DNA of 64,000 nt, taken from the NCBI GenBank assembly GCA_032372955.1, contig GCA_032372955.1_4725.1, one strand, 5' to 3'. The DNA comes from Escherichia coli (GTDB taxonomy: Bacteria > Pseudomonadota > Gammaproteobacteria > Enterobacterales > Enterobacteriaceae). Under the pieces are notes generated by a model, which ran no database searches, had not been told where the DNA came from, and was given only the letters and a program-made list of their open reading frames with translations. Numbering within the stretch: position 1 is the stretch's first letter; every line of letters begins with the position of its first letter. Below, piece by piece: positions 1-15,364 of the stretch. Made by a program: the position numbers and the translations under genes.

Positions 1-219
1 GAGTTGATCGTTATCACCGTGTTGATACGACACGACTTCGCCCACCTTAAACCCATCTTGACATTGCTTGCGGTACGCTTCAAGAAGACCGGGAACACGA
101 TCAGCTGCCTGCTTGGCAAGACCACGTCCCATCACACCGACGGTGTTAACAGGAATAACCCGAACGTCAGCCGGTGTTTCCCAAATATCCAACCCAATCA
201 AACTGGTAAATCTCGCCAT
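1..219 (-). CDS. Macro domain protein, TARG1/DarG-like (partial; C-terminus lies beyond window start)
   Basis: Minus-strand ATG at 219..217; translation MARFTSLIGLDIWETPADVRVIPVNTVGVMGRGLAKQAADRVPGL carries the N-x-x-G-V-M-G-x-G-L-A-K-Q signature of ADP-ribose-binding macro domains. Absent from the ORF track only because it is truncated by the window edge. Confidence 0.5.
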   Translation of the reverse strand, partial: MARFTSLIGLDIWETPADVRVIPVNTVGVMGRGLAKQAADRVPGLLEAYRKQCQDGFKVGEVVSYQHGDNDQL

Positions 220-220
220 T

Positions 221-550
221 TTATTTTCCGTTTCGTAAACGTTCTTCTTCTCGTCGTAACTTGTCCTCATCGTCGTCCAGTACCGCACTACGTTTCCGCA
301 GTTCGTCTTGTGCGATTTTGAGTACCGTTTGCGCGTAAGGATACGGTGCTTTTAAAAACGCATCCAGCGTCATGAACTCTTTAATACCGAATCGGACATA
401 ATCCTCGATTAAGGGTTTAATCCCTAATCTGTCCCAGGGATCTTCAGCGGGATGCTGAGCCACCCATTTCAACGGTGTCCATTCGTTAACACGATCGTAC
501 AAGCCAAACATGGTATCGTACGCAATACCCATTTCGATGTTCAGTTTCAT
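221..550 (-). CDS. Hypothetical protein
   Basis: ORF 221..580; first ATG at 550 (MKLNIEMG), the track start at 580 is TTG. Stop abuts the start of the macro-domain gene. Confidence 0.45.
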   Translation of the reverse strand: MKLNIEMGIAYDTMFGLYDRVNEWTPLKWVAQHPAEDPWDRLGIKPLIEDYVRFGIKEFMTLDAFLKAPYPYAQTVLKIAQDELRKRSAVLDDDEDKLRREEERLRNGK

Positions 551-642
551 GCCACCGTCGCCTTTACGCGCTAACAGCAATTCCCAGATTTTTTCATCAT
601 TACGAACAAGTTGCCCGTCATGTAACCCATATCGCGGATCGA

Positions 643-2328
643 TTAGAATACCGCGTCCATCCCCTCCTGAAGAGATTGGACGGAGTTTAGGGTAAAAAAA
701 AGCTGGGGTACATCCAAAGCAATCAGATCGTAGTATTTCTGGTCACGCAGATTGTCAGCAATATCGGCATTACATTTCGGACATTTCCAGGCAGGCATCG
801 CTGCGAGTGCAATCGTCGAATCACCGATGAATTGCATCAACCCATCGATATAACGTTCACGAAGGTCGCTGTCACGAGACAGCTGTGCTAATACCGTTGC
901 CGTATCTGCATCGCTTACACGACGCATGGTACCGTTTACCGATACATGCATCGATTTGATCCACGCATCATACTGACGCATCCAGCTATAGAACTGACGC
1001 TCACGAATAACACGATCACGTTCTTCTTCGGTCATTGACGGACGCGATAGAATATCACGCAGATCTTCCAACGTATCGCTTAACCAACGTTCACCCATGG
1101 CGATTTGTCGTGAAATCTTCGGTACTTCAAGTTCAATGATAACAGAACCGTTGTCGGACAGATCCAGCGTGCGGGAGTTTGTTTCACCCAGTTCGTTCGC
1201 ATACTCACGCAAAAGTTCATCGGTCATGACCGGACCTTCGGTCATGATCTGTCGCATACGTTTGGTAATTGCGCTGTTGTCAACTTGATAGAGTTTCGCA
1301 AAGCTTACGGTATCTTCAACACGATAGTCGCAGGTTTCTGGATTCTGATAGCAGGTCTGTACGTAAGGATATCCGTACGGGTACATGGTTACCAGCACGT
1401 TCAGCAATAACGCTGGAACATCGGTAACCGGAATAATGTCTTTCAAACGCTGGATATCCAGGTTCGGTACGTTGGCCATGTAACAGCATTCTAATGCTAA
1501 TTCGATTGCGTGCTTCATGGTGATAATCGAGGTTGCCGAAAACAGGAAACCGGTACTATCACGCCCACCCAGGATTTTATCACGTGCGATACGTTCATGC
1601 ATAATTGCAACACGTTCATTTGACGGCGGATTGAACTGCAGCTTAATACCGCTATGCCATAACGGCATTACCGCTGGCGCACCTGATTTTGTATTACGAA
1701 TAGCAAAATAGATCGCATCGGTTCCTGTCAACGGCGCTTCGACGTCGTCAGGGATATGGTTCGGTTGTGGAATGCCAGGAATAACGCGACCAACACCCGA
1801 TGAGTCTACGGGCACGTTAGTCCACTGACTGCCTTTACGTTCCAACGCGCGATCGTGAGCTGGGCCGCGCGGATGATATTGTCCATCAGCAACCGATTGC
1901 ACCACCGCTTTACTGAATTTATCAAACTGTTCGTCTGTCGGTTTACCGCGTTGAGCGACAATGGCTTGCACGGTATCCATTGCTTCGTTGATGTATTCCC
2001 GGTAATACGTTGTCTGTACGCGCGGAGAATATAACGGTAACACCAACGGCTGACGTTTTGTTTTCTTCGGACTCTTAGGACGAATGTCTTCGCATTGGAA
2101 ACGTATCGTTGCCTTCGAGAAATCGACCAGCGGTGGATGTGATGGTTCTTCTTCACGAGTTGCTTCTGGAGCCACTACATCTTCCTTAGTCGTGCTGACT
2201 TCGTCTTTACTTTCCTGCTGTGCGGAACCAACAGGCTCGGAACTTGCCGGAATCGTTGTTTCAACGGACGACTCTGAACGCTCAACGGCTTCCTGATTCG
2301 TCACGACTTCTTTTTCTTGTTCGCTCAT
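643..2328 (-). CDS. Hypothetical protein (561 aa) with acidic S/E-rich N-terminal region and a C-terminal CPKC motif
   Basis: Long ORF; AAGGAG ribosome-binding site upstream of the ATG at 2328; start overlaps the stop of the upstream gene. Confidence 0.6.
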   Translation of the reverse strand: MSEQEKEVVTNQEAVERSESSVETTIPASSEPVGSAQQESKDEVSTTKEDVVAPEATREEEPSHPPLVDFSKATIRFQCEDIRPKSPKKTKRQPLVLPLYSPRVQTTYYREYINEAMDTVQAIVAQRGKPTDEQFDKFSKAVVQSVADGQYHPRGPAHDRALERKGSQWTNVPVDSSGVGRVIPGIPQPNHIPDDVEAPLTGTDAIYFAIRNTKSGAPAVMPLWHSGIKLQFNPPSNERVAIMHERIARDKILGGRDSTGFLFSATSIITMKHAIELALECCYMANVPNLDIQRLKDIIPVTDVPALLLNVLVTMYPYGYPYVQTCYQNPETCDYRVEDTVSFAKLYQVDNSAITKRMRQIMTEGPVMTDELLREYANELGETNSRTLDLSDNGSVIIELEVPKISRQIAMGERWLSDTLEDLRDILSRPSMTEEERDRVIRERQFYSWMRQYDAWIKSMHVSVNGTMRRVSDADTATVLAQLSRDSDLRERYIDGLMQFIGDSTIALAAMPAWKCPKCNADIADNLRDQKYYDLIALDVPQLFFTLNSVQSLQEGMDAVF

Positions 2329-2798
2329 GCTTCGGTGGCTCCTTGAGATTTAACACTGTTAGCGAATCGGATCTGGTTCTCCATCCCTTCAACACGCAGT
2401 TGGCTTAGGCGTGCGACGTCAGGACGTAGAATATCGGATGCGCGTTCCAGGATGTTCATTAACGACATCCCGTAGTTGTACTGTAACAGAATACTTTGTT
2501 CATCAACTTCTTTACCGTACATCGGCGTAATGGAGTTCTTGATCGTCGTCAACTCGGTTTGAAGTTCGGTCAGATCTTTATTCGTGCTCGTTGATAACGC
2601 AACGAACTCATCACGTTTGTTTTGGGTTAATCGTAAACGACAGGGCTGCGTCGCTTGGTAAATAGCCGCACCCAGGGTGCCCAATAACAATTCGCAGTTT
2701 TCGATAGGTTCACGTAACTCGTCCCAACGAATTGCTGTTGTTTCCTGAGCTTTAGGGTTTCCTACGGATTTTTTTCTTGGTTTGGATGAAACTGGCAT
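2325..2798 (-). CDS. Hypothetical protein (157 aa)
   Basis: ORF with AGGAGT ribosome-binding site before the ATG at 2798; 4-bp overlap with the downstream gene. Confidence 0.55.
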   Translation of the reverse strand: MPVSSKPRKKSVGNPKAQETTAIRWDELREPIENCELLLGTLGAAIYQATQPCRLRLTQNKRDEFVALSTSTNKDLTELQTELTTIKNSITPMYGKEVDEQSILLQYNYGMSLMNILERASDILRPDVARLSQLRVEGMENQIRFANSVKSQGATEA

Positions 2799-2894
2799 GG
2801 GATGGTTACTCCTGATTAATCTAAGTTGGCGTAAGCTGGTAGTTTCTTCAATAGATTATGAGAGCTAGTAGACATTTACCGCATCGGAGTGGAT

Positions 2895-3767
2895 ATGATT
2901 GATTCCGTCTTGGCTTTGTTAGAAGGTAAGATCCCTGAAACAAGGCGTACGCTGTTACAGCACTGCATGCATCGTTTATACCAAGATTTTAAATGTGAAC
3001 AACTGGAAACGTTCTGCAGTACGATGTTGTCGGGTGCTGGGGAACAATACGATTTAAACGAATTAGATATCATTTTAACAAACGGATGTATCGAACTTTA
3101 TAAACAACAATTGCTTGCCTTCGGGATCCGAATTAACGAAGGACAGCTATCTCTGGATAGCCTGAAATATCTTCATGCACTGGCATCTACGTTATTAGAC
3201 CTGGAAACACACGACGATACCGCTTTTCTACTCGCTATCGTTGAAGATGAAGACTACACCGCAGCTGAAGCGTTAGCAGAATGTACGCGACACATTTACG
3301 GCGTCGATGCTGCGAATGTAACCCCATTAATCAGTTTCGTGCACTCAAGCTTGCTTCCACGCATTCAGCAGGTGCTGACCAAGAAGCTGGAGAAAGACAG
3401 CGAGAACGTAGTCGACGAGGAAAACGTCCAGATTCCTGATCGCATCCGTCGACGTATTCGTGTCATCAGTGATGCGTTCCCACCGGTGTTCAGCCAGTAT
3501 TTTGATGAAGGGGGTACGATAGCGGTTCCACTGGACCTGCTGATGGCGCAGTGTCGGGATCAGCTTACTGCATTACGTCAGCAACCGTACGCATACACCC
3601 AAGAACTGATCGCATTCGCTTTAGCTTCCGATCTCGAAGATAATGAACTCGTCCCTGTCTTACGAGAACTTATCACCACAAACTTCCCGATGGCTGAAGA
3701 ATCCAAAGAAGCAACCCGAGCGTTATCAGAGTTCGTTTCACGTCACGGTGACCTGACCCACGTTTAA
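2895..3767 (+). CDS. Hypothetical protein (~290 aa)
   Basis: ORF 2889..3767; ATG at 2895 preceded by GGAGTGG; first gene of a + strand block after a divergent intergenic region. Confidence 0.55.
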   Translation: MIDSVLALLEGKIPETRRTLLQHCMHRLYQDFKCEQLETFCSTMLSGAGEQYDLNELDIILTNGCIELYKQQLLAFGIRINEGQLSLDSLKYLHALASTLLDLETHDDTAFLLAIVEDEDYTAAEALAECTRHIYGVDAANVTPLISFVHSSLLPRIQQVLTKKLEKDSENVVDEENVQIPDRIRRRIRVISDAFPPVFSQYFDEGGTIAVPLDLLMAQCRDQLTALRQQPYAYTQELIAFALASDLEDNELVPVLRELITTNFPMAEESKEATRALSEFVSRHGDLTHV

Positions 3768-3780
3768 AAGGAGTTACTAC

Positions 3781-5082
3781 ATGACACCTCGTGAATATTT
3801 CCTTTACGCGATGCGTGAAGGGCACTACCGATATCTTGAATGGATTAACGACGCATTTGCTTTTACGGAAGGTGGCGCTGAAAAATATCAGCCTAAATTA
3901 CGTCGTCAAGGTAACGTCGTTACGGTTACCATCGACGGTGAAGAACACCGATGGGAAACCGAGCCAACAAAACCCTTGTTGAATTTCTGGGATCCGTTGG
4001 AGCTTGCACCTGGCGATTTACCGTCGGTTAAGAACACAACCACCACAACCTTCGGTGAAGCGTTGTTCAATATGTACGTCCTTTATGACGCTTTCGGTAT
4101 TCAGATTGAATATCAGGCAGGACGGTTAACCAGCGGTACACTAGAATCACTGATTGCGCCGCGCGTAGCAGACGATCCCGAAGAGGGAATACCCGATCCT
4201 AACGAACGCCCTATTGGCCCACTGTACGCAAGCGAAGTGAAGAAATTCACCAACAATATCAGTGCATTAACCGCTATCAACCGTTTAATTGTCCCGTCAA
4301 TGAGTGATAAAGCGTTAACGGTCGATGATGATATTATTGCCTATCGTGATAAAGAGTTGGCGCGCTTACAAGAGGAAGGTAAGTTCACGCCTGAAGAACT
4401 GATCAAACTCGAAGCCACGCTAACCAAAATGGATAAGGAATCCTTTAAGGGCGATGAATCGGAAGGGTTCTATATTAACCCAGGCAAGAGTTTCGGTAAT
4501 ACTCGAAAGAAAACACACATCATGATGGGGGTTGAAGCCGACTTCGTTGACCCCGGTAAACGTAACGTTATCACACACAGCCTGGCTGAAGGGATGCGTG
4601 TCGACCATTGGGCGGAGTACAACAACAGTGCGCGTGCGGGTTCGTTCTCACGTGGTGCGTTAACCGCTTTAGCTGGACAGACGGCGAAAGAATCACAACG
4701 TGCAACACAGAACCTTAAAATCACGATGGACGACTGCGGTACCCACGAACATATTCTTTTCACGGTAAACCGCGACCACATCAAAGATAAGCTGCTTGTC
4801 GGCCGTTACATGATCGACGGCGCGGCGCTTAAACTTATTGATGCTGAATTACTTGCTTCTTTGGAAGGACAAACCATCAAGTTACGTGATCCTCAACGTT
4901 GTAAAGCAGGCCCATTGGAATACTGTGCTACCTGTTGCGGTAACGCGATGGCTCCAACCCCAGATGCGATCGGGGCAGAGATCACCGGCGTAAACAACGT
5001 TTTCATGAACACTATGATGAAAGCAATGCATAACGCCAGTGTATCGTTAGCGCCTTACGATCCTGAACTTTATATTAGTTAA
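3781..5082 (+). CDS. Multisubunit RNA polymerase beta-prime-like fragment (bridge helix, zinc-binding segment, start of trigger loop)
   Basis: NSARAGSFSRGALTALAGQ resembles the beta-prime bridge helix; KITMDDCGTHEHI matches the bacterial beta-prime VTEDDCGTHEGI block; a Cys cluster CKAGPLEYCATCCGN and DAIGAEITGVNNVFMNTMMKAMHN (cf. [25 protein letters not shown]) follow, then the ORF ends. Confidence 0.65.
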   Translation: MTPREYFLYAMREGHYRYLEWINDAFAFTEGGAEKYQPKLRRQGNVVTVTIDGEEHRWETEPTKPLLNFWDPLELAPGDLPSVKNTTTTTFGEALFNMYVLYDAFGIQIEYQAGRLTSGTLESLIAPRVADDPEEGIPDPNERPIGPLYASEVKKFTNNISALTAINRLIVPSMSDKALTVDDDIIAYRDKELARLQEEGKFTPEELIKLEATLTKMDKESFKGDESEGFYINPGKSFGNTRKKTHIMMGVEADFVDPGKRNVITHSLAEGMRVDHWAEYNNSARAGSFSRGALTALAGQTAKESQRATQNLKITMDDCGTHEHILFTVNRDHIKDKLLVGRYMIDGAALKLIDAELLASLEGQTIKLRDPQRCKAGPLEYCATCCGNAMAPTPDAIGAEITGVNNVFMNTMMKAMHNASVSLAPYDPELYIS

Positions 5083-5107
5083 CCTTGTTAAACAAAAGGA
5101 AATAAAC

Positions 5108-5734
5108 ATGAGCAAGAATAAAGACCAACGTTCTGCAAAAATGGACGAGGAGATTACTGCGGTAGAAACCACCGTTGCAGATGCTCCGGTTAGTGATGTT
5201 GTAGCACAGCCGGAAACGGTCGCTGTTGAGAAGAAGGAAACCGTTGTTGAAGAAAAGCCTGCGAAACCAGCAGTGAAAGAATCGCCAGCTGTTTCTATCG
5301 TGGCTTCTCGTGCCGCAACCCTGGTTGCTCCGTTCCAGAAATATGCGGAAGAAATGGGTCCGACCATGCCGCAAACACCGCAGTCGTTGATCCGTCATCA
5401 GCGGTCTTTAATGTCTGCTTTCCGCGCGTTACTGGATGTGGATAATCCTGAGGTTTTCCGCACCGCCTTTGCTGATATTCTGAAAATCTGGAAAGATAAC
5501 AGCGAAGGGGCATTTAATGCAAACCGTTATCTGTATCGCGGTATCGATAACATGCCGCTGGACTACCATACCCGCATGGCTTTCCTGACAGTACTGCGTC
5601 TGATGGATGCGATCTATGATGAAAGCCGTCGCCAAGTTGAAATCCGCGCTATCGACCTTAATATCGCAATTCCTGAAATTGCTTACTTCGATACGCGTAA
5701 CTATCTGGCGGGTTACATGCGTCGCTTTGCATAA
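5108..5734 (+). CDS. Hypothetical protein (208 aa) with A/E/V-rich N-terminal region
   Basis: ORF with AAGGAAATAAAC before the ATG; host-like codon usage. Confidence 0.55.
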   Translation: MSKNKDQRSAKMDEEITAVETTVADAPVSDVVAQPETVAVEKKETVVEEKPAKPAVKESPAVSIVASRAATLVAPFQKYAEEMGPTMPQTPQSLIRHQRSLMSAFRALLDVDNPEVFRTAFADILKIWKDNSEGAFNANRYLYRGIDNMPLDYHTRMAFLTVLRLMDAIYDESRRQVEIRAIDLNIAIPEIAYFDTRNYLAGYMRRFA

Positions 5735-5862
5735 CGTCTAAGGCGACGTAACGGGATTGCTGTCGTTACGACGTAGGAGGTGATCCTGATCTCCCTCACT
5801 CGCGGGGTGATGCGATAATCGTCGTGAGCTTGTCGTGAGAGATTCTCATTGCGGTCATAAAC

Positions 5863-5904
5863 TCTTCCCGCCCCATATAAGGGCAGGGAAGGGCTTTATG
5901 CCGT
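5863..5904 (+). terminator. GC-rich hairpin followed by TATGCCG motif (member of repeated hairpin-TATGC family)
   Basis: CTTCCCGCCCC..GGGCAGGGAAG inverted repeat, then TTTATGCCG at 5896..5904. Confidence 0.45.
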
Positions 5905-5947
5905 TGAATTTATCCTGTGCAGAAAATAAAAATAGGACAAGCACTCC

Positions 5948-6349
5948 ATGAACGAAACACTCGAACAACCCGCAATCTATCGTTGGACATCCGTTTGGAA
6001 TTATGTTTCTTTTAGCGTTGACACCGCAATGCAAGCCGTAATGGATTATAAGAATACCGGCAAAACGAACGAATGGTTAGTCATGCCCTGCGGCGACCTT
6101 ATTCGTACTGAAGGAATGTATTTCCCTAATGCCGGGAAAGACCGCCGTATCCAGGACAGGATGCGTACGACGATTCTGACGAATGGTGACGTCATGATCG
6201 AATGTTGGGCTGATTACCCCATTGATCGTGAACACCAGGATGAAATCTACCAGCGTTTACGCGATGAAATGGTTGCTGCAACGAAGCGGTATTCCTGTCG
6301 CGTTAAGCTGTATTGTTGGTTAAACGGCGTTGCCGTCCACGACATTTAA
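5948..6349 (+). CDS. Hypothetical protein (133 aa)
   Basis: ORF bracketed by two hairpin-TATGC elements. Confidence 0.5.
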   Translation: MNETLEQPAIYRWTSVWNYVSFSVDTAMQAVMDYKNTGKTNEWLVMPCGDLIRTEGMYFPNAGKDRRIQDRMRTTILTNGDVMIECWADYPIDREHQDEIYQRLRDEMVAATKRYSCRVKLYCWLNGVAVHDI

Positions 6350-7728: not shown

Positions 7729-8241
7729 GTGAATATGAATAACGAAGTAAATAAGAAAGTTGAAATGCGTGGTATTTGCGGACGTCCTGCAGAGACGTCT
7801 AAAATAAAGGATAGAGTGATCGCCCTTCTCAACTTAGTGCCTGACACCACGCTGGTTACATGTTGGGATATTATCGATACAACGATACTGCGATTCGAGG
7901 CGAATTTAAGAAACAACAGTTGCTGGAGCCCTGCTTTGTCGGCTGATGATAAAGTCTATCTCGTAAACGAGACACCTGCTAAAGATAATAATCGTATCGA
8001 TCGTTGGCGTTTTGCGTTGCACGACAACATTGTTAGTATCGACGTTATACTGAGTATAACAGGTGAGTCGTGTATTGCCGTCAATGAAATAGCGGCATAT
8101 GCCAAACTAAAATTAGCACAGTGTTTTCATACACGCGTCCGTGGATTCGATATGCCTGTTACATTAACAATCAACGGGCACGACGGTTCAGGGCTGTTCG
8201 AATTCCACTACGATCCTGACAATGAAAACACAGAAGAGTAA
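7729..8241 (+). CDS. Small protein, paralog family A (member 1)
   Basis: C-terminal region (MPVTLTINGHDGSGLFEFHYDPDNENTEE) parallels the next two genes (LEYEPDNGTE, MEYSPDEEG). Confidence 0.5.
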   Translation: MNMNNEVNKKVEMRGICGRPAETSKIKDRVIALLNLVPDTTLVTCWDIIDTTILRFEANLRNNSCWSPALSADDKVYLVNETPAKDNNRIDRWRFALHDNIVSIDVILSITGESCIAVNEIAAYAKLKLAQCFHTRVRGFDMPVTLTINGHDGSGLFEFHYDPDNENTEE

Positions 8242-8312
8242 TTAATCAACGATATCGTGTCCCTTGTTAGGTGGGGCACGTATCGGTTAAAAGGTGTCGA
8301 AGGTGTTAAAAA

Positions 8313-8774
8313 ATGACGACATGGGATTCTTACGGTGAGCAGCTGGTAGAATCGATAATTAAAAGCTTTGAAATACTCGAAGTAAGATTGCAGGAGGACG
8401 GGTGCTGGGAATTATTTAACGAGCCCGATTCCGACTCCGAACCTTACTTCTACAACCTATCCGTTCCAACAACACAACACGGCAATGCTACGATTGTAGA
8501 TATCACCGATATCAGAGTTTACAATAATCGTATCGCTGTAATAGCACGACTGCCTTTTAGCGTAAACGGGCTTGCCGCAAAGCAACTTCTAATGTATACA
8601 GCCAACGAGACATTTGGTAAATGCATAAAGTCGCACGGTATCTCGTTCCCCCTAGCGATCGATTATGAATTATCGGATGGCTGCAATCTCGTTACATTGG
8701 AGTATGAACCGGATAATGGAACAGAGATAACAGCACTCTCTGTTCCGATGAAGATGAAGAAAGAGGTAGAATAA
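8313..8774 (+). CDS. Small protein, paralog family A (member 2)
   Basis: Shares RLPFSVNGL / LEYEPDNG blocks with 8774..9232; stop overlaps the next start (TAATGG). Confidence 0.55.
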   Translation: MTTWDSYGEQLVESIIKSFEILEVRLQEDGCWELFNEPDSDSEPYFYNLSVPTTQHGNATIVDITDIRVYNNRIAVIARLPFSVNGLAAKQLLMYTANETFGKCIKSHGISFPLAIDYELSDGCNLVTLEYEPDNGTEITALSVPMKMKKEVE

Positions 8775-9232
8775 TGGCAACAATGTATTCATTCGAATCT
8801 AACGTCAACGAACTTTTCGACTCGCATAGAGACACTTACGTCACGCCTGTTGCTGAGACCGTCACTCGAAGTATCGAATCCCTCAAACAAAATCTACGTA
8901 AATCCGATATTTGGTCGATGGGACATAGCGATAATGACGGGACGTATTTTACCATCGTGGAACGTATCCCAACAATACCGTTTCATAGCGTTTATCTTGA
9001 CAGTACCGTTGTTTTCTATGTTTACAAGCATCGTATCCTTATCAACATACAACTACCATTCAGCGTCAGCGGGGTTGATGCTATACGTCGGTTGGCTGAT
9101 GTTGCTAATAACGCATTTACGAAATCAGCTATGCCGTGCGATTTCCCTATTACATTAACACTCAAGTTTTCCGATGGTTATGAATTCTACACGATGGAAT
9201 ACTCTCCAGACGAAGAAGGAGCTAAGGGATAA
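8774..9232 (+). CDS. Small protein, paralog family A (member 3)
   Basis: QLPFSVSGVDA and MEYSPDEEG blocks collinear with member 2; same length class (152 vs 153 aa). Confidence 0.55.
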   Translation: MATMYSFESNVNELFDSHRDTYVTPVAETVTRSIESLKQNLRKSDIWSMGHSDNDGTYFTIVERIPTIPFHSVYLDSTVVFYVYKHRILINIQLPFSVSGVDAIRRLADVANNAFTKSAMPCDFPITLTLKFSDGYEFYTMEYSPDEEGAKG

Positions 9233-9234
9233 TC

Positions 9235-9999
9235 ATGTCTATCAAAGATAAAGTTCAGCGATTAATCGAATTCAACCAACAGTGCCGTATTGATGAACTC
9301 GTCAATCTCGTAAACCATATATTCGATAAGTTTGAAGAATCGTTAAACGACGATATGTGGGATACCGATATCGTAAACGGTAAAGCGTATCTTCGGAAAA
9401 CCGTAGCGGATACTGATAGGGTACAATTTCTGGAATTCGGTTTAACTGACGATGGTGCCGTTATTCATGCGTTATTACCCCCATGTTTAAATAACGTTGA
9501 TGTATTAACATACAAACAACATCTATCCGAAATTTTCCAAACAAGAACCTCAAAGTACGAATGTCATATTCGTTTAATGATGTGTTTCCCCATGGAATCT
9601 AACGATAGCAAAACAATAACATTCGATACAAAAGAAATCGCAGATGAAATCTACGTCGATAGCGCAAGGGCTCGTGTCGATCGTATCGTCGATATGTTAG
9701 TTGATGTTGCACGTTCATTCAGTTCAACATCAGACTCTAAGAATGGTTACGTATGTGATTACGTGCATGAACCGTTACGGCGCATCGTTGCAACTCAGAC
9801 AGACAAAGGCATCAATGTTATTGGGGTAGTAAGTGATTTGTCTATGACCGACAACGACAATCTTGAGTTGAGAAGGATCTTCGAAACACGATTGCGAAAC
9901 TGCGCATCGAGATACAAAACATCTGTCACCTTCACCCTCTGTTTTCATCCCGCCATCATGTCGTGGGTAACAACTGTTGATAAAGAAAACAGTAAATAA
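9235..9999 (+). CDS. Hypothetical protein (254 aa)
   Basis: ORF tightly packed after 8774..9232, with AGGAGCTAAGGGATAATC before the ATG. Confidence 0.5.
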   Translation: MSIKDKVQRLIEFNQQCRIDELVNLVNHIFDKFEESLNDDMWDTDIVNGKAYLRKTVADTDRVQFLEFGLTDDGAVIHALLPPCLNNVDVLTYKQHLSEIFQTRTSKYECHIRLMMCFPMESNDSKTITFDTKEIADEIYVDSARARVDRIVDMLVDVARSFSSTSDSKNGYVCDYVHEPLRRIVATQTDKGINVIGVVSDLSMTDNDNLELRRIFETRLRNCASRYKTSVTFTLCFHPAIMSWVTTVDKENSK

Positions 10000-10035
10000 G
10001 TAATATTTCCAAATCGATAACATTAAGGATAAAAA

Positions 10036-10431
10036 ATGAGCATTGTAGAATCCATCGTTAAAGCTGTTAACGACAACATCGATCATCCGCGCATTTCTAC
10101 CATGATCGATATTATTAAACAAGAAAAAACACCTGGTTCATACATTCGTTTTACCCGTTTTGATAGCAGCGATTTACTTTTCACTGTGAAAACCGAGGTT
10201 CACGAGCAACGTATCATCGTAGAGGTCCTGGTAAAGGAGAACAAAGAACTAGACTGGCACTCTGTTCGTGGTGACAGAGACGCGAGAAATTTACTTAAAG
10301 AACATCTCTGTAAAGTGGAAGAGAAATACAATATCCCATTTAGCTTAGAGGTCAATCTTTTCCCAGCGTACCTGCTCTGGTACGTCAGTAGTGAGAAGCA
10401 TGTCGAAACGACAACTGACGTCAAAGAGTAA
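10036..10431 (+). CDS. Small protein, paralog family B (member 1)
   Basis: MSIVESIVKAVNDNIDH and EEKYNIPFSLEVN blocks shared with 10468..10866. Confidence 0.55.
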   Translation: MSIVESIVKAVNDNIDHPRISTMIDIIKQEKTPGSYIRFTRFDSSDLLFTVKTEVHEQRIIVEVLVKENKELDWHSVRGDRDARNLLKEHLCKVEEKYNIPFSLEVNLFPAYLLWYVSSEKHVETTTDVKE

Positions 10432-10467
10432 ATATACGTGATCAATAACAAACTAGGGATTAAAAAG

Positions 10468-10866
10468 ATGAACGTTGCTGATTCCGTCGCTAAAGCGGTC
10501 ATCGATAACATCGACCATTCGTATATTCCCGCCATGATCGATCTGGTTAAGCGAGAAAACGTATCTGACTCGTTGATGTGCTTTAGTCGTATGCTCGACC
10601 AAGCTATACTCGAGGCTGTAAACGTCAGCGTACATCGCCAACATGTTCTCTTCGAGGCGTATATAAAGAACGACCAACATCGATTAGGCCACCACGCGTT
10701 ACGACACGACGAGAACGCGCTGGAGCAGCTAACGAAATGTCTTTATGCGCTGGAAGAGAAATATAACATTCCTTGCTCTCTAGAGGTTAACCATTACCCA
10801 GCGTGTCGGATTTGGCGTATCGCTGGTAAGAAAGGCGCGACGCCTTCAGCTGATTGCGAAGCATAA
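10468..10866 (+). CDS. Small protein, paralog family B (member 2)
   Basis: MNVADSVAKAVIDNIDH and EEKYNIPCSLEVN blocks; ATG at 10468 aligns with the paralog N-terminus (track start 10438 is GTG). Confidence 0.55.
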   Translation: MNVADSVAKAVIDNIDHSYIPAMIDLVKRENVSDSLMCFSRMLDQAILEAVNVSVHRQHVLFEAYIKNDQHRLGHHALRHDENALEQLTKCLYALEEKYNIPCSLEVNHYPACRIWRIAGKKGATPSADCEA

Positions 10867-10877
10867 CAACGTAGCAT

Positions 10878-10921
10878 AGCCCCTTCCCTAGCCATCAAGG
10901 CCGGGGAAGGGCTGTATACCG
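10878..10921 (+). terminator. GC-rich hairpin (CCCTTCCC/GGGAAGGG) followed by CTGTATACCG
   Basis: Immediately after the stop at 10866; same architecture as the other hairpin-TATGC elements. Confidence 0.45.
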
Positions 10922-10941
10922 ACTACACAGGAAAAGAAACA

Positions 10942-11394
10942 ATGAACATGAAAACCGACAAATCTATGAAAAAGCGCTTAGATCGTCTATTCAATGGTCC
11001 CACGGCAGCCTCCGTCGTTGAGGATGTTATTACTCAAGCATTCGAATGCATGGACAGAGGTCTTAACAGCATCCTTGGATGGCATCAGAAAGAACGTGAA
11101 GGTAAGCTCGTCCAGTGTTACAACGAACGTCACTTCGATGATAGTGGTATCAGTGGCGATTACTTTATCTATTTATTTCCCGATAAAATCACGATCAACA
11201 TTGAATTCGATAATGCGATGAACGATCAGGAAATAACATCGATGCGTCAAGCCGCGAAACAAGCCTTCGGACGTTGCGTGGAGCAATACGATCCCGATGT
11301 GTTTATCACATGCCGCATTTTCATCGAGCCGCGAAAATTAATTCAGCATATGTCCTACGGCACCACGTACACTGACGAATCCAACAAGGAATAA
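10942..11394 (+). CDS. Hypothetical protein (150 aa)
   Basis: ORF with AGGAAAAGAAACA before the ATG. Confidence 0.5.
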   Translation: MNMKTDKSMKKRLDRLFNGPTAASVVEDVITQAFECMDRGLNSILGWHQKEREGKLVQCYNERHFDDSGISGDYFIYLFPDKITINIEFDNAMNDQEITSMRQAAKQAFGRCVEQYDPDVFITCRIFIEPRKLIQHMSYGTTYTDESNKE

Positions 11395-12690: not shown

Positions 12691-13797
12691 TTAAGCGTCG
12701 TTAAGACCGACAGGCATCGAACTGACATCTTCAAAATAGCGGAAGATGAATGGAGAACGACCTTCTGTGATCCTATTACGACAGTACTTCGTGATAGTCA
12801 CGTTAGAAACACCCGTCTCTCGTTGTGCGTGAGCAATTGATGCAAACACATAACGTTTACCGGTTTGTTTATCGATAGCCGCGATAGGGTGACCCATATC
12901 GTATTCCTGAAGACGACGATGTTGTCCGATCTGCCAATCTGGCCACGGAGTATCATCGTCAACTTCTTTGAAATACAGATTACAGGCTGGCATGAATTTC
13001 GTTTTACGCGTCATCCAATACCAAACACGTTTACGTTCCAAGCATGGATAAGCAGCACAACACGCGGCAATAGTCGGGAACACCCTAATCTCACCGGTAT
13101 TGTAATCCTTAACCTTAACAGGATGTAAGCCTTCCGTACGAAGACCATTATCAACTGCATGCTTATTGTTCTCAGAATAGGTTGTCCATTCAATGTTGCC
13201 AGGACGGTTATCCCATTTGATGCCGTTCTTGTGATTGATGATCTTTGTCATCACATCGGCACCGTATTCCAGGAACACGTAACCCATCGCTCGATGCTGG
13301 AACATTTGAGCTGTGAAACCGTTGTCATTAACAACTCGTTGAAAGAGATAACCAGCACGTTTATTTCGCGCCGGATCCCCTTTCGACCGTGTCCATGATT
13401 TCTTCTGCCCGGTTAAAAGACTAATAACTTCACCCTGTTCATTCATCACGTAATGCGTGAAGAACGGGACATAGTAATAGCCGGGATAACCTTTATGTTC
13501 CAACTTACCGTTCTTGAAACGATAAAGCAAATTCTCACGTTTGATGTTTTCTGGGTTCCCATCGATATACAACGAATGTGCTTCGTCTAAGAGATCTTCG
13601 TATATGTTAATAGCGTGCAGTTTACGCATTACCACAAGACCTGCGTCATACAGACCAGGACCACGGTACCAGTCAAGTTTGACGTACGATATTCCGTCTT
13701 CCACGATAAGCGGTAACGGCTTCATATCGAGGTCGAAGATACCTTCTTCGGAAACAACACATTCAGTAATCTTTGGATACTCATAACTACTTGACAT
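12691..13797 (-). CDS. HNH homing endonuclease
   Basis: HKNGIKWDNRPGNIEWTTYSENNKH is a canonical HNH block; the likely start is the second ATG at 13797 (MSSSYEYPK), 7 bp after AAGGAG; the track start is at 13824. Confidence 0.8.
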   Translation of the reverse strand: MSSSYEYPKITECVVSEEGIFDLDMKPLPLIVEDGISYVKLDWYRGPGLYDAGLVVMRKLHAINIYEDLLDEAHSLYIDGNPENIKRENLLYRFKNGKLEHKGYPGYYYVPFFTHYVMNEQGEVISLLTGQKKSWTRSKGDPARNKRAGYLFQRVVNDNGFTAQMFQHRAMGYVFLEYGADVMTKIINHKNGIKWDNRPGNIEWTTYSENNKHAVDNGLRTEGLHPVKVKDYNTGEIRVFPTIAACCAAYPCLERKRVWYWMTRKTKFMPACNLYFKEVDDDTPWPDWQIGQHRRLQEYDMGHPIAAIDKQTGKRYVFASIAHAQRETGVSNVTITKYCRNRITEGRSPFIFRYFEDVSSMPVGLNDA

Positions 13798-13864
13798 ATC
13801 AACTCCTTGCTCGCTTAGTATCATACTTATCGAGAAAGGAGGTAAAACTTAACCGATTTATTTC

Positions 13865-15364
13865 TTAATCCGCAACAAATAATCTAATATAACTTCTCAG
13901 GTTCGGCATATCCCAGAAGAGATGGATGCCGTTGTCCGCCATGAGATCGCATGGCAATGTGACGATATGTCCGGTTCGTGAGATAACCCACTTATCTTCT
14001 TCCTGGGTCATGTCGTCGGCGGTGCATCCCATGACTTCCCCACGGTTAAGATACACGAAGAAAAGTTTATCGCAGATACGTTTAGGGTTAGAACTGAAAT
14101 CTTTCAAATCCGACGCCGCCAAACGAATAGGGATGGTCATCGAATAGTCTTTTGTTTTCTGGTCCAACGCCTCGATGCCTTGGTTATCCCAAAGGTTATA
14201 TACACCGTAGTCGATTTGATGGTTCGTTTGCATCTCTTCGTGCCATGCAAGCTCCGTGAACCCTTCTGTACCAGGAATCGCTTTTAATTTCGTATGGCAT
14301 TTATTTCGCTCTAACACCGCATCGAGTGAATAACGTCCTTCATCCGGTCTTCCTAAACGAACGAACTTATAACCACACATCGCATCCATAACCTGATACG
14401 TGGCCATCGTATAAAACATCGGCCATGTTTGCTCAAGGGTAAGGTTGGTTTTACGACCTGAAGCAGATACCTTGTCGGTCTTCGGTGGTACCCAGCGAGC
14501 AATACGATACTTAGGTGGTACACGAGGATCGGAGAAAACATCCTCGGGACGATACCCTTCCTCGTTCAGTGCCTGGAGCATGCGCGGAATATCGAACGCA
14601 ATATTCCAGCCAAGGAGATAATCCGGCTGCCATTCGTGAACCTTCTGCATGCATTGGATGACCGCTTGCGCCGGGCTTTCTACGATTCGCACATCGTACT
14701 GATATTTTTCAAATGCGTGAGGATCTTCTTTGGTGTTCAGACGTTCGGCCAGGTAATATCGAATCTTCTCATGGGTTTTCTCAATCGCATTCGGAATATG
14801 ACCAACGAAGTCCTTGGTATAGCAAAGGATCGCATTGTATCCCATTGTAATAGACATACAGACGATCTTACCGTGTCCATGGACAACGTCGGTTTCGATA
14901 TCGAAACAGGCAATGGAAGCGGGTAATTTATCGACGTATTCCGGCCATTTTGTATTGTATTGGGTTTTTAAATAACAGCTGGCGCTAACGTCCGTGCCGT
15001 AGAGGTAGGGACTCCGTGCAAGTTGTTGTAAACGGGTGTTATCGTCAGCACGTCTTTTATAAAGCACCGAACTGATCTTTTCAACCAGTTCACTTTGACG
15101 GACATCGTAGCGTCGCACATGCGAGAGCTTCTCGCTTTCCTTTTTATATTTGTTCTTGCGTTTACTCTCTACCGTCACCCAAAACGGACGTTTGTAATTC
15201 TCGAAGAAGCGAAGGTTCGTCGCTTGCGTATTATCATCAAAGAACATGATCTCTTTTGCGATCATGAGGTCGTTCTTACTGCCATCGTTCGCTTCGTTAT
15301 AGCTGATGTGTCGACATTGAATACCGAGCAGTTTCTTCTTAGGTTTTCGTTCTTGTTCGCTCAT
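13865..15364 (-). CDS. DEDDy 3'-5' exonuclease domain protein (family-B DNA polymerase proofreading-like); no polymerase motifs in this ORF
   Basis: Exo I FDIET, Exo II WNIAFD, Exo III YNLWD (YxxxD) in canonical order and spacing; the ORF ends about 100 aa after Exo III with no DxxSLYPS or YGDTDS blocks. Confidence 0.65.
   Translation of the reverse strand: MSEQERKPKKKLLGIQCRHISYNEANDGSKNDLMIAKEIMFFDDNTQATNLRFFENYKRPFWVTVESKRKNKYKKESEKLSHVRRYDVRQSELVEKISSVLYKRRADDNTRLQQLARSPYLYGTDVSASCYLKTQYNTKWPEYVDKLPASIACFDIETDVVHGHGKIVCMSITMGYNAILCYTKDFVGHIPNAIEKTHEKIRYYLAERLNTKEDPHAFEKYQYDVRIVESPAQAVIQCMQKVHEWQPDYLLGWNIAFDIPRMLQALNEEGYRPEDVFSDPRVPPKYRIARWVPPKTDKVSASGRKTNLTLEQTWPMFYTMATYQVMDAMCGYKFVRLGRPDEGRYSLDAVLERNKCHTKLKAIPGTEGFTELAWHEEMQTNHQIDYGVYNLWDNQGIEALDQKTKDYSMTIPIRLAASDLKDFSSNPKRICDKLFFVYLNRGEVMGCTADDMTQEEDKWVISRTGHIVTLPCDLMADNGIHLFWDMPNLRSYIRLFVAD

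What the first reader, a model, noticed from the sequence alone, without database searches (positions are those of the whole stretch)
1..219. Phage-encoded TARG1/DarG-type macro domain at the window edge
The visible N-terminal 73 aa contain the VNxxGVMGRGLAKQ glycine-rich loop typical of ADP-ribose-binding and ADP-ribosylhydrolase macro domains. In a phage this could reverse host ADP-ribosylation-based immunity such as DarT-type DNA ADP-ribosylation, or process ADP-ribose-derived signals. The gene is absent from the ORF track only because it is cut by the window start.
Basis: partly seen in the sequence, partly recalled or inferred. Interest (0 to 1): 0.55.

Follow-up and report, generated by a model that had tools for sequence, protein, structure and literature searches.

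The report
Known phage anti-DarT macrodomain (AdfM)
The window's left edge holds the first 73 codons of a jumbo-phage enzyme gene whose relatives strip ADP-ribose marks from phage DNA to defeat the bacterial DarTG2 defence.

Summary
Confirmed and ordinary. Window 1-219 (minus strand) encodes the N-terminal 73 aa of a macrodomain protein, and the motif VNTVGVMGRGLAKQ is present at aa 24-37. The fragment alone matches DarG antitoxin models (E 4e-10 and 9e-10).

The window is 95% identical in DNA to the nucleus-forming E. coli jumbo phage Goslar. The gene is the orthologue of Goslar gp083, which RefSeq calls "macro domain-containing protein" (69 of 73 aa identical).

A metagenome contig 98% identical to the window runs past the edge. 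It shows an intact 169-aa ORF whose first 73 aa are identical to the window's. That ORF carries both DarG catalytic residues, Asn25 and Lys81, and the second glycine loop.

A profile built from the phage proteins hits solved DarG macrodomains at 2e-29. It hits TARG1 at only 3e-4 and Appr-1''-p phosphatases at 0.3.

Morgan et al. (Cell Rep 2026, PMC13309987) named this family AdfM. For PhiKZ gp104 they showed removal of DarT2-made thymidine ADP-ribose from DNA, import into the phage nucleus and protection from DarTG2. Goslar gp83 appears in their alignment.

For this phage, activity, localisation and the unseen C-terminus remain inferred.

The parts
1..219 (-). First 73 codons of about 169 of the adfM-like macrodomain gene, orthologue of Goslar gp083. 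The gene is cut by the window start, and about 96 codons plus the stop lie outside the window.
   Evidence: Translation. 95% DNA identity to Goslar and 69 of 73 aa identical. DarG HMM hits for the fragment alone. The full ORF is seen in the 98%-identical contig L007 at 416-925.
217..219 (-). Most likely start codon (ATG, giving MARF...). It lies 1 nt after the stop codon of the upstream gene, a spacing typical of translationally coupled genes.
   Evidence: The PhiKZ, PhiPA3 and Psa21 AdfM proteins start MAEF... at the aligned position. The upstream ORF ends at 221. An in-frame ATG at 268-270, the start RefSeq uses for Goslar gp083, adds 17 residues that have no counterpart in any homologue.
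109..150 (-). First glycine-rich loop, VNTVGVMGRGLAKQ (aa 24-37). By homology this is the ADP-ribose-binding loop of the macrodomain.
   Evidence: V24, N25, G28, V29, M30, G31, G33 and A35 are invariant across the phage AdfM proteins and the T. aquaticus and M. tuberculosis DarG macrodomains.
145..147 (-). Codon AAC for Asn25. It is equivalent to T. aquaticus DarG N22 and PhiKZ AdfM N23.
   Evidence: Alignment. The PhiKZ N23A mutation reduces de-ADP-ribosylation of DNA (PMC13309987).
221..580 (-). Upstream neighbour on the same strand: a 119-aa ORF, orthologue of Goslar gp082, function unknown. It is listed as context only. No functional link is shown, and it is not a darT gene.
   Evidence: ORF list. 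Goslar annotation. PHROG 12109, function unknown. No Pfam hit.

Best explanation
The fragment is the 5' end of the adfM gene (anti-DarT factor, macro) of a Goslar-like, nucleus-forming E. coli jumbo phage.

The protein is a stand-alone macrodomain of about 169 aa, homologous to the N-terminal catalytic domain of the bacterial antitoxin DarG2. It lacks DarG's C-terminal DarT-binding domain and has no partner toxin gene.

By homology it binds ADP-ribose through the VNTVGVMGRG loop. It uses Asn25 and a downstream Lys (Lys81 in close relatives, outside the window) to hydrolyse the ADP-ribose that host DarT2 attaches to thymidine in single-stranded phage DNA (TNTC motifs). This would restore DNA replication and packaging in hosts that carry DarTG2. 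In other chimalliviruses the protein is imported into the phage nucleus by PicA and acts there.

Shown here: gene identity, orthology, family membership by sequence, conservation of Asn25 in the window, and conservation of Lys81 and the second loop in near-identical relatives.

Shown by others for PhiKZ and PhiPA3: enzymatic activity, anti-DarTG2 function and nuclear localisation.

Inferred for this phage: an intact C-terminus, activity, nuclear import, and E. coli DarTG2 as the relevant target.
For: - The fragment alone matches DarG models at E 4e-10 and 9.4e-10, aligned to positions 7-66 of profiles 329 and 338 positions long.
- The full Goslar orthologue matches at 3.4e-22 and 7.5e-23, covering only positions 7-146 of those profiles, which is the macrodomain.
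- PDB by sequence: the T. aquaticus DarG macrodomain 5m31 at 7e-15 and the M. tuberculosis DarG 5m3i at 1e-12.
- A phage-only profile hits DarG at 2e-29, TARG1 at 2.6e-4 and Appr-1''-p phosphatase 6lfu at 0.32.
- Goslar gp83 matches PhiKZ gp104 at 33% identity over 96% of its length (E 2e-15) and PhiPA3 gp108 at 1e-14.
- The catalytic Asn is conserved in the window (N25). FPSK Lys81 and the PPVGSGCG loop are present in Goslar gp83 and in L007. L007 is 98.3% identical to the window in DNA and 100% identical over the 73 aa.
- Substitutions against Goslar are 13 synonymous to 4 non-synonymous.
- PMC13309987 shows that PhiKZ AdfM removes DarT2-made ADP-ribose from DNA, that N23A reduces this, that it rescues DarT2 toxicity, that deletion mutants of PhiKZ and PhiPA3 are restricted by DarTG2, and that AdfM localises to the phage nucleus. 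Goslar gp83 (YP_009820768.1) is in their Figure 1B alignment.
- E. coli does carry DarTG systems that ADP-ribosylate ssDNA, for example in EPEC (PMC7003065 abstract).
Against: - Only 73 of about 169 codons are in the window. The catalytic Lys and the second phosphate-binding loop of this phage's own copy are unseen.
- A Logan contig from a third Goslar-like phage carries a 1-nt deletion that frameshifts the gene after DWRE. The gene may therefore be dispensable or decaying in some relatives, or the deletion may be an assembly error.
- The Goslar-type protein is only about 33% identical to the tested PhiKZ and PhiPA3 proteins. It has an 8-residue insertion after the second Gly loop and a different C-terminal tail.
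- No Goslar-group protein has been assayed for activity, localisation or DarTG2 protection. Goslar is mentioned only in the alignment legend of the paper.
Confidence: 0.82

Rival explanations
1. The protein is a broader or different nucleic-acid or protein de-ADP-ribosylase of the TARG1 kind. For example, it might remove uracil-linked ADP-ribose from RNA, or counter RNA-targeting ADP-ribosyltransferases such as CmdT. DNA thymidine de-ADP-ribosylation would then be secondary or absent.
For: TARG1 and TARG1-like macrodomains, including bacterial homologues, hydrolyse U-ADPr on RNA (PMC13036486 abstract). An mRNA ADP-ribosyltransferase defence system, CmdTAC, exists in E. coli (PMC11618068 abstract). 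The phage profile does detect TARG1 at 2.6e-4. The Goslar-type protein is diverged from the assayed PhiKZ type.
Against: The protein is about 25 orders of magnitude closer to DarG macrodomains than to TARG1. The tested orthologues act on DarT2-modified DNA, and their loss sensitises phage specifically to DarTG2. There is no evidence of an RNA substrate for any AdfM.
Confidence: 0.08
2. The protein is a Poa1p-like ADP-ribose-1''-phosphate phosphatase. It would clear a by-product of 2'-phosphotransferase-dependent RNA ligation and repair. This is what the older annotations imply: CDD Macro_Poa1p_like in the RefSeq note, 'phosphatase' in PHROG 335, and 'Appr-1-p processing' in several phage records.
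For: The RefSeq note on Goslar gp083 cites cd02901, Macro_Poa1p_like. PHROG 335 is labelled phosphatase. Several homologues are annotated as Appr-1-p processing proteins.
Against: These are legacy name transfers. Solved Appr-1''-p phosphatases (6lfu and others) score only E 0.3-0.8 against the phage profile, compared with 2e-29 for DarG. PhiKZ AdfM has demonstrated DNA ADP-ribosylglycohydrolase activity.
Confidence: 0.04
3. The protein is a non-catalytic ADP-ribose binder or sponge. It would sequester ADP-ribose-derived immune signals rather than hydrolyse a modification. This corresponds to the reader's second suggestion.
For: Macrodomains bind ADP-ribose in general. The visible fragment contains the binding loop only.
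Against: Both catalytic residues of DarG are conserved: Asn in the window, and Lys in the near-identical relatives. The orthologue is an enzyme. No signal-binding macrodomain family appeared in any search.
Confidence: 0.03
4. In this particular phage the gene is a pseudogene or is truncated beyond the window edge, so the fragment has no function.
For: The C-terminal 96 codons cannot be seen. One related Logan contig has a frameshift.
Against: The closest relative, L007 (98.3% DNA identity), and Goslar both have intact 169-aa ORFs. All 4 differences from L007 and 13 of 17 from Goslar within the fragment are synonymous. The Logan frameshift is a 1-nt deletion in an A-rich stretch (GAAAGAAC to GAAAAAC) of a 981-bp short-read contig.
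Confidence: 0.03

Closest known systems
AdfM (anti-DarT factor macro) of chimalliviruses: PhiKZ gp104, PhiPA3 gp108, Asesino gp217, Goslar gp83 (Morgan et al., Cell Rep 2026, PMC13309987)
   Same: It is the orthologue of Goslar gp83, with 69 of 73 aa identical, in the same genomic position of a colinear genome. It is a stand-alone DarG2-like macrodomain of about 165 aa with the same MA(E/R)F N-terminus. The VN(T/V)VGVMG loop with the catalytic Asn is conserved, and close relatives have the FP(T/S)K Lys and the PPxG loop.
   Different: It is only about 33-36% identical to the experimentally tested PhiKZ and PhiPA3 proteins. Relatives of the window gene have an 8-residue insertion after the second Gly loop and lack the VVVYPPW tail. 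The host is E. coli rather than Pseudomonas or Erwinia. Activity, nuclear import and DarTG2 protection have not been tested for any Goslar-group protein.
DarG (DarG2) antitoxin macrodomain of the DarTG2 toxin-antitoxin system (T. aquaticus 5m31/5m3e, M. tuberculosis 5m3i)
   Same: It has the same macrodomain subfamily and the best sequence match of any solved structure. The catalytic Asn22 and Lys80 equivalents are conserved. The predicted chemistry is the same: hydrolysis of thymidine-linked ADP-ribose on ssDNA.
   Different: It has no C-terminal DarT-binding domain: 169 aa aligned only to positions 7-146 of 338, scoring 81 bits against the equivalog cutoff of 250. There is no adjacent darT gene. 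It is phage-encoded and is used as a counter-defence rather than as a self-antidote.
Human TARG1 / OARD1 (C6orf130; 4j5q-s, 2eee)
   Same: It belongs to the same broad macrodomain clade, and the phage profile detects TARG1 at E 2.6e-4 over the whole domain. TARG1 also removes thymidine-linked ADP-ribose from DNA (PMC8501950 abstract).
   Different: The relationship is much more distant than to DarG. A single-sequence search did not detect TARG1 at all. TARG1 is a eukaryotic enzyme with protein, RNA and DNA substrates.
AdfN (phage orphan DarG1-like NADAR protein; PMC11825919), and other anti-DarT factors: AdfA and ICP1 Gp145 (PMC10760071)
   Same: The strategy is the same. The phage carries an orphan copy or mimic of the antitoxin in order to undo or block DarT.
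   Different: AdfN has a different fold (NADAR, not macro) and a different target (guanine ADP-ribosylation by DarT1). ICP1 Gp145 appears to act by direct interaction with DarT (abstracts).

Membership tests
AdfM (chimallivirus anti-DarT macrodomain) | Encoded by a chimallivirus (nucleus-forming jumbo phage) | tested here: met
   Window 1-6000 is 95.2% identical to Escherichia phage Goslar. The whole window is colinear with Goslar at 88-97% identity. Goslar is a ChmA-dependent, nucleus-forming phage (PMC12571901 text; title of reference 4).
AdfM (chimallivirus anti-DarT macrodomain) | Sequence homology to PhiKZ gp104 / PhiPA3 gp108 across the whole protein | tested here: met
   The Goslar orthologue against PhiKZ gp104 gives 32.9% identity over 96% of the query, E 2e-15. 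Against PhiPA3 gp108 it gives E 1e-14. The window fragment is 43-45% identical to these proteins over its 73 aa. Goslar gp83 is listed as an AdfM in PMC13309987 Figure 1B.
AdfM (chimallivirus anti-DarT macrodomain) | Catalytic Asn (PhiKZ N23 / T. aquaticus DarG N22) in the VNxVGVMG loop | tested here: met
   Asn25, window 145-147 on the minus strand, sits in an invariant column of the alignment.
AdfM (chimallivirus anti-DarT macrodomain) | Catalytic Lys (PhiKZ K78 / T. aquaticus DarG K80) in the FPTK motif, and the second Gly-rich loop | tested here: inconclusive
   Both lie beyond the window edge. They are present as FPSK (K81) and PPVGSGCG (starting at aa 128) in Goslar gp83 and in contig L007. 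L007's first 73 aa are identical to the window's.
AdfM (chimallivirus anti-DarT macrodomain) | Hydrolyses DarT2-made thymidine-ADP-ribose on DNA and protects the phage from DarTG2 | not testable with these tools
   This has been shown only for PhiKZ (enzyme assay, toxicity rescue, deletion mutants) and for PhiPA3 (deletion mutant) in PMC13309987.
AdfM (chimallivirus anti-DarT macrodomain) | PicA-dependent import into the phage nucleus | not testable with these tools
   Nuclear localisation has been shown for the Asesino, PhiKZ and PhiPA3 proteins only. Import signals are surface patches specific to the cognate phage.
Macrodomain fold (Pfam PF01661, Macro) | Score above Pfam's gathering threshold across the domain | tested here: met
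   The full-length Goslar orthologue scores 24.5 bits against a cutoff of 22, covering profile positions 3-113 of 118. The 73-aa fragment alone scores 15.8 bits, below the cutoff as expected for a partial domain.
DarG antitoxin (NCBIfam NF048014 equivalog; PADLOC DarG) | Two-domain architecture: N-terminal macrodomain plus C-terminal DarT-binding domain | tested here: not met
   The relatives are 169 aa long and align only to positions 7-146 of 338. They score 81 bits against the equivalog cutoff of 250.
DarG antitoxin (NCBIfam NF048014 equivalog; PADLOC DarG) | Encoded next to a darT toxin gene | tested here: not met
   The upstream neighbour is a phage ORF of unknown function, the orthologue of gp082. 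Downstream in Goslar and in L007 there is a terminator and then a convergent phage gene.
TARG1 / OARD1 | Close sequence relationship to TARG1 orthologues | tested here: not met
   TARG1 is detected only by the profile, at E 2.6e-4 (24 bits), against 2e-29 for DarG. The single-sequence search did not detect it. The protein belongs to the same clade but is not a TARG1 orthologue.
Poa1p-like ADP-ribose-1''-phosphate phosphatase | Sequence relationship to characterised Appr-1''-p phosphatases | tested here: not met
   Solved Appr-1''-p phosphatases (6lfq-6lfu) score E 0.3-0.8 with no significant stretch. The label comes from CDD and PHROG name transfer.

The most novel reading that the evidence does not exclude
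The Goslar-group AdfM may have a shifted specificity or site of action relative to PhiKZ AdfM. It is about 33% identical to the tested proteins, has an extra 8-residue segment next to the second phosphate-binding loop, and has a different C-terminal tail. It might, for example, also reverse uracil-linked ADP-ribosylation of phage RNA, or work in the cytoplasm rather than in the phage nucleus. That would extend phage counter-defence to RNA ADP-ribosylation.
Probability: 0.08. Interest if true: 0.5.

Novelty: already known. Interest (0 to 1): 0.12.

Why it matters
The biology is of interest: even a phage that walls off its DNA in a protein nucleus needs an enzyme to erase the ADP-ribose marks made by DarT2. 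That point has already been made and published for this gene family.

This window adds only another near-identical allele from a Goslar-like E. coli phage, and the allele is truncated by the window edge. Its practical value is for annotation. The gene should be called adfM or DarG-like DNA ADP-ribosylglycohydrolase rather than "phosphatase" or "hypothetical protein". The RefSeq start of Goslar gp083 is probably 17 codons too long.

Tried and rejected
- An exact-match scan of IMG/VR viral contigs with window 1-60 found nothing. The same scan of GTDB genome contigs with window 1-46 also found nothing.
- The metagenome scan found one 2.9-kb contig, L007. It is a 98% relative, not the same genome.
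- The large protein-database search with the 73-aa fragment returned a single protein, P0001. This is a 116-aa frameshifted product from a 981-bp Logan contig, so it could not supply a trustworthy C-terminus.
- The sequence evidence (2e-29 to solved DarG macrodomains) is already decisive, and a published AlphaFold 3 model of PhiKZ AdfM exists (Cα RMSD 0.72 Å to 5M3E).
- I did not fold the 73-aa fragment alone, because a partial macrodomain would be uninformative.
- The C-terminal part of the gene is not elsewhere in the window (tblastn). This rules out a permuted or split copy.
- The sub-threshold Pfam DUF7242 hit (20.5 bits against a cutoff of 27) was not pursued.
- The Poa1p/phosphatase label was rejected as a legacy name transfer.

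Full report
**Observation.** Read on the minus strand, window 1-219 is an open frame of 73 codons. It starts at the ATG at 217-219 and runs off the window start: MARFTSLIGLDIWETPADVRVIPVNTVGVMGRGLAKQAADRVPGLLEAYRKQCQDGFKVGEVVSYQHGDNDQL. The ORF lister omits it because ORFs that run off an end are not listed. The upstream same-strand ORF (221-580) stops one base before the ATG.

**Is it more than chance?** Yes. The 73 residues alone match the PADLOC DarG model at E 4e-10. They match the NCBIfam DarG antitoxin equivalog model at 9.4e-10 and PHROG 335 at 3.6e-11. On Pfam Macro the fragment is below threshold (15.8 bits against 22), as expected for under half a domain.

**Where the window comes from.** Window 1-6000 is 95.2% identical to Escherichia phage vB_EcoM_Goslar. 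The whole 64 kb is colinear with Goslar at 88-97% identity, apart from a few indels. Goslar is a chimallivirus, a jumbo phage that builds a ChmA protein nucleus.

The gene is the orthologue of Goslar gp083 (YP_009820768.1), which RefSeq annotates as [quoted passage not shown]. Over the 73 visible residues, 69 are identical. Of the 17 codons that differ, 13 are synonymous.

**Recovering the rest of the gene.**
- The window's own genome was not found in IMG/VR or in GTDB genomes.
- A JGI metagenome contig, Ga0079226_10049480 (L007), matches window 1-634 at 98.3% and continues past the edge. It carries an intact 169-aa ORF. Its first 73 aa are identical to the window's, with only four synonymous differences. 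Overall it is 97% identical to Goslar gp83.
- The large protein database gave only a 116-aa product from a 981-bp Logan contig. A 1-nt deletion in an A-rich stretch (GAAAGAAC to GAAAAAC) frameshifts that gene, and the downstream sequence is otherwise conserved in the original frame. I treat this as a probable assembly error, but a real pseudogene in that relative is possible.
- The missing C-terminal part is not elsewhere in the window.

**What it is.**
- The full-length Goslar orthologue passes Pfam Macro (24.5 bits).
- It matches the DarG models at 3.4e-22 and 7.5e-23, but only over profile positions 7-146 of about 335. That region is the N-terminal macrodomain and excludes DarG's C-terminal DarT-binding domain.
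- Against all solved structures by sequence, the best hits are the DarG macrodomains of T. aquaticus (5m31/5m3e, 7e-15) and M. tuberculosis (5m3i, 1e-12).
- A profile built only from phage sequences (Goslar, window, PhiKZ gp104, PhiPA3 gp108, Psa21) hits those two at 2e-29 and 4e-29 and a third macro protein, 7omu, at 9e-22. Human TARG1/OARD1 comes in at 2.6e-4, and Appr-1''-p phosphatases only at 0.3-0.8.

"TARG1/DarG-type" is therefore correct, and "DarG-type" is the precise statement. The "Poa1p-like" and "phosphatase" labels in CDD and PHROGs are legacy names.

**Catalytic residues.**
- In the alignment with the DarG macrodomains and the phage homologues, V24, N25, G28, V29, M30, G31, G33 and A35 are invariant.
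- Asn25 (window 145-147) corresponds to T. aquaticus DarG N22 and PhiKZ N23. The chain numbering of 5m31 is offset by 10, which places N22 and K80 at VNTVG and FPTK respectively.
- The catalytic Lys lies outside the window. It is conserved as FPSK (K81) in Goslar gp83 and in L007, as is the second glycine loop PPVGSGCG.

**Start codon.** RefSeq starts Goslar gp083 17 codons further upstream (MRTSYDEKKNVYETENK-MARF...), overlapping gp082 by 50 nt. The same in-frame ATG exists in the window at 268-270. PhiKZ, PhiPA3 and Psa21 AdfM all begin MAEF at the position aligned with MARF, and nothing aligns with the 17-residue extension. I therefore take 217-219 as the start.

**How it most likely works.** The decisive information comes from the literature. 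[quoted passage not shown] They report the following.
- About half of chimalliviruses encode it.
- PhiKZ gp104 removes ADP-ribose from a DarT2-modified TNTC oligonucleotide, and the N23A mutation reduces this.
- It fully rescues E. coli from DarT2 toxicity.
- The Asesino, PhiKZ and PhiPA3 proteins localise to the phage nucleus. Import of PhiKZ gp104 is PicA-dependent.
- PhiKZ and PhiPA3 deletion mutants are restricted by DarTG2, with ADP-ribosylated phage DNA, reduced replication and blocked packaging.

Goslar gp83 is one of the five sequences in their Figure 1B alignment.

By orthology, the window's gene encodes a DarG2-like DNA ADP-ribosylglycohydrolase that undoes DarT2 modification of thymidines in phage ssDNA. 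E. coli strains do carry such systems, for example EPEC DarTG (PMC7003065 abstract).

Three things are inferred rather than shown for this phage:
- that its C-terminus is intact;
- that the Goslar-type protein has the same activity and nuclear import. It is about 33-36% identical to the tested proteins, has an 8-residue insertion after the second Gly loop and has a different tail;
- that E. coli DarTG2 is its natural target.

**Rivals.**
1. A broader or RNA-directed de-ADP-ribosylase. TARG1-like macrodomains, including bacterial ones, cleave U-ADPr (PMC13036486), and an mRNA ADP-ribosyltransferase defence exists (PMC11618068). This is possible as an additional activity, but nothing supports it as the main one.
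2. An Appr-1''-p phosphatase. This is rejected on the profile scores.
3. A non-catalytic ADP-ribose binder. This is unlikely, because the catalytic Asn and Lys are conserved.
4. A truncated pseudogene in this genome. This is unlikely given the intact ORFs in the two closest relatives and the synonymous-dominated divergence.

**Comparison with known families.** The protein works like a DarG2 macrodomain and belongs to the same macrodomain subfamily. It is not a DarG antitoxin in the strict sense: it has no C-terminal domain, scores 81 bits against the equivalog cutoff of 250, and has no adjacent darT gene.

It is a member of the AdfM family by orthology. It parallels AdfN, the orphan NADAR protein that T4-like phages use against DarTG1 (PMC11825919), and other anti-DarT factors such as ICP1 Gp145.

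Homologues of the Goslar protein occur in 187 phage records. Most are chimalliviruses of Pseudomonas, Erwinia, Salmonella and Escherichia. Others are roughly 77-kb E. coli and Shigella phages and some actinophages.

**Verdict.** Its Goslar orthologue is annotated as a macrodomain protein, and the family's function as an anti-DarTG2 enzyme was published in 2026. Interest is low. The remaining open points are the unseen C-terminus and the untested properties of the Goslar-type variant.

Noticed in passing
window 217-270 (-); L001 5219-5270: RefSeq starts Goslar gp083 17 codons upstream of the MARF start, overlapping gp082 by 50 nt. The extension aligns with nothing in the PhiKZ, PhiPA3 or Psa21 AdfM proteins or in DarG, so the annotated start is probably too long. 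The same upstream ATG exists in the window at 268-270.
   Followed up: partly
L002 (Logan SRR22550193 contig, 981 bp), about 690 in locus coordinates: A third Goslar-like phage variant, 97.4% identical to window 1-662, has a 1-nt deletion (GAAAGAAC to GAAAAAC) that frameshifts the macrodomain gene after ...SDWRE. The called product is 116 aa. This is either a real pseudogene or a short-read assembly error.
   Followed up: partly
window 9218-10858 (within the small-ORF cluster 7729-11394): The window has about 1.6 kb that Goslar lacks, between the gp072 and gp071 orthologues. It holds three extra ORFs (9235-9999, 10036-10431, 10438-10866) with no Pfam hit. By eye, some adjacent ORFs here resemble each other (8313-8774 with 8774-9232, and 10036-10431 with 10438-10866). 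This looks like copy-number variation in a local paralogue array.
   Followed up: partly
window 12691-13824 (-): A 377-aa HNH_3 plus NUMOD1 homing-endonuclease-like ORF lies next to a 499-aa ORF (13865-15364), the counterpart of Goslar gp068 (annotated 'DNA polymerase'). It occupies the same slot as Goslar gp069 (NUMOD1/HNH_3) but shows no megablast-level DNA similarity to it. The mobile endonuclease has probably been replaced or has diverged rapidly.
   Followed up: partly
window 18074-18283 and 20545-21404: These are short stretches with no megablast match to Goslar, inside otherwise 88-97% identical colinear sequence. They fall roughly opposite Goslar gp064-gp065, which are large hypothetical proteins. 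They are local hypervariable segments.
   Followed up: no
L007 about 2284 (metagenome contig Ga0079226_10049480): Relative to Goslar, this contig lacks about 2.3 kb, including the gp086 gene (a 2.6-kb ORF 'weakly similar to capsid protein'). Goslar positions L001 1041 and 3352 are adjacent in L007. This is either a real deletion in that relative or an assembly join.
   Followed up: no
window 643-2328 (-): A 561-aa ORF, the orthologue of Goslar gp081, belongs to PHROG 4585 (function unknown, E 2e-67) and has no Pfam hit. Near its C-terminus it has a CxxC motif (WKCPKCN). It is conserved in PhiKZ-like phages but uncharacterised.
   Followed up: no
window 1-219 (-), aa 4-56: The N-terminal half of the macrodomain gives a sub-threshold hit to Pfam DUF7242 (20.5 bits against a cutoff of 27, profile positions 177-229 of 248). 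That family of unknown function may contain a macro-like C-terminal module.
   Followed up: no
phage records (e.g. PP445229, OR983334, PQ818763, MN045231): DarG-like macrodomain homologues, about 30-37% identical to Goslar gp83, also occur in E. coli and Shigella phages with genomes of about 60-80 kb and in Rhodococcus and Microbacterium phages. These are not chimalliviruses, so orphan DarG-like macrodomains are not restricted to nucleus-forming phages.
   Followed up: no
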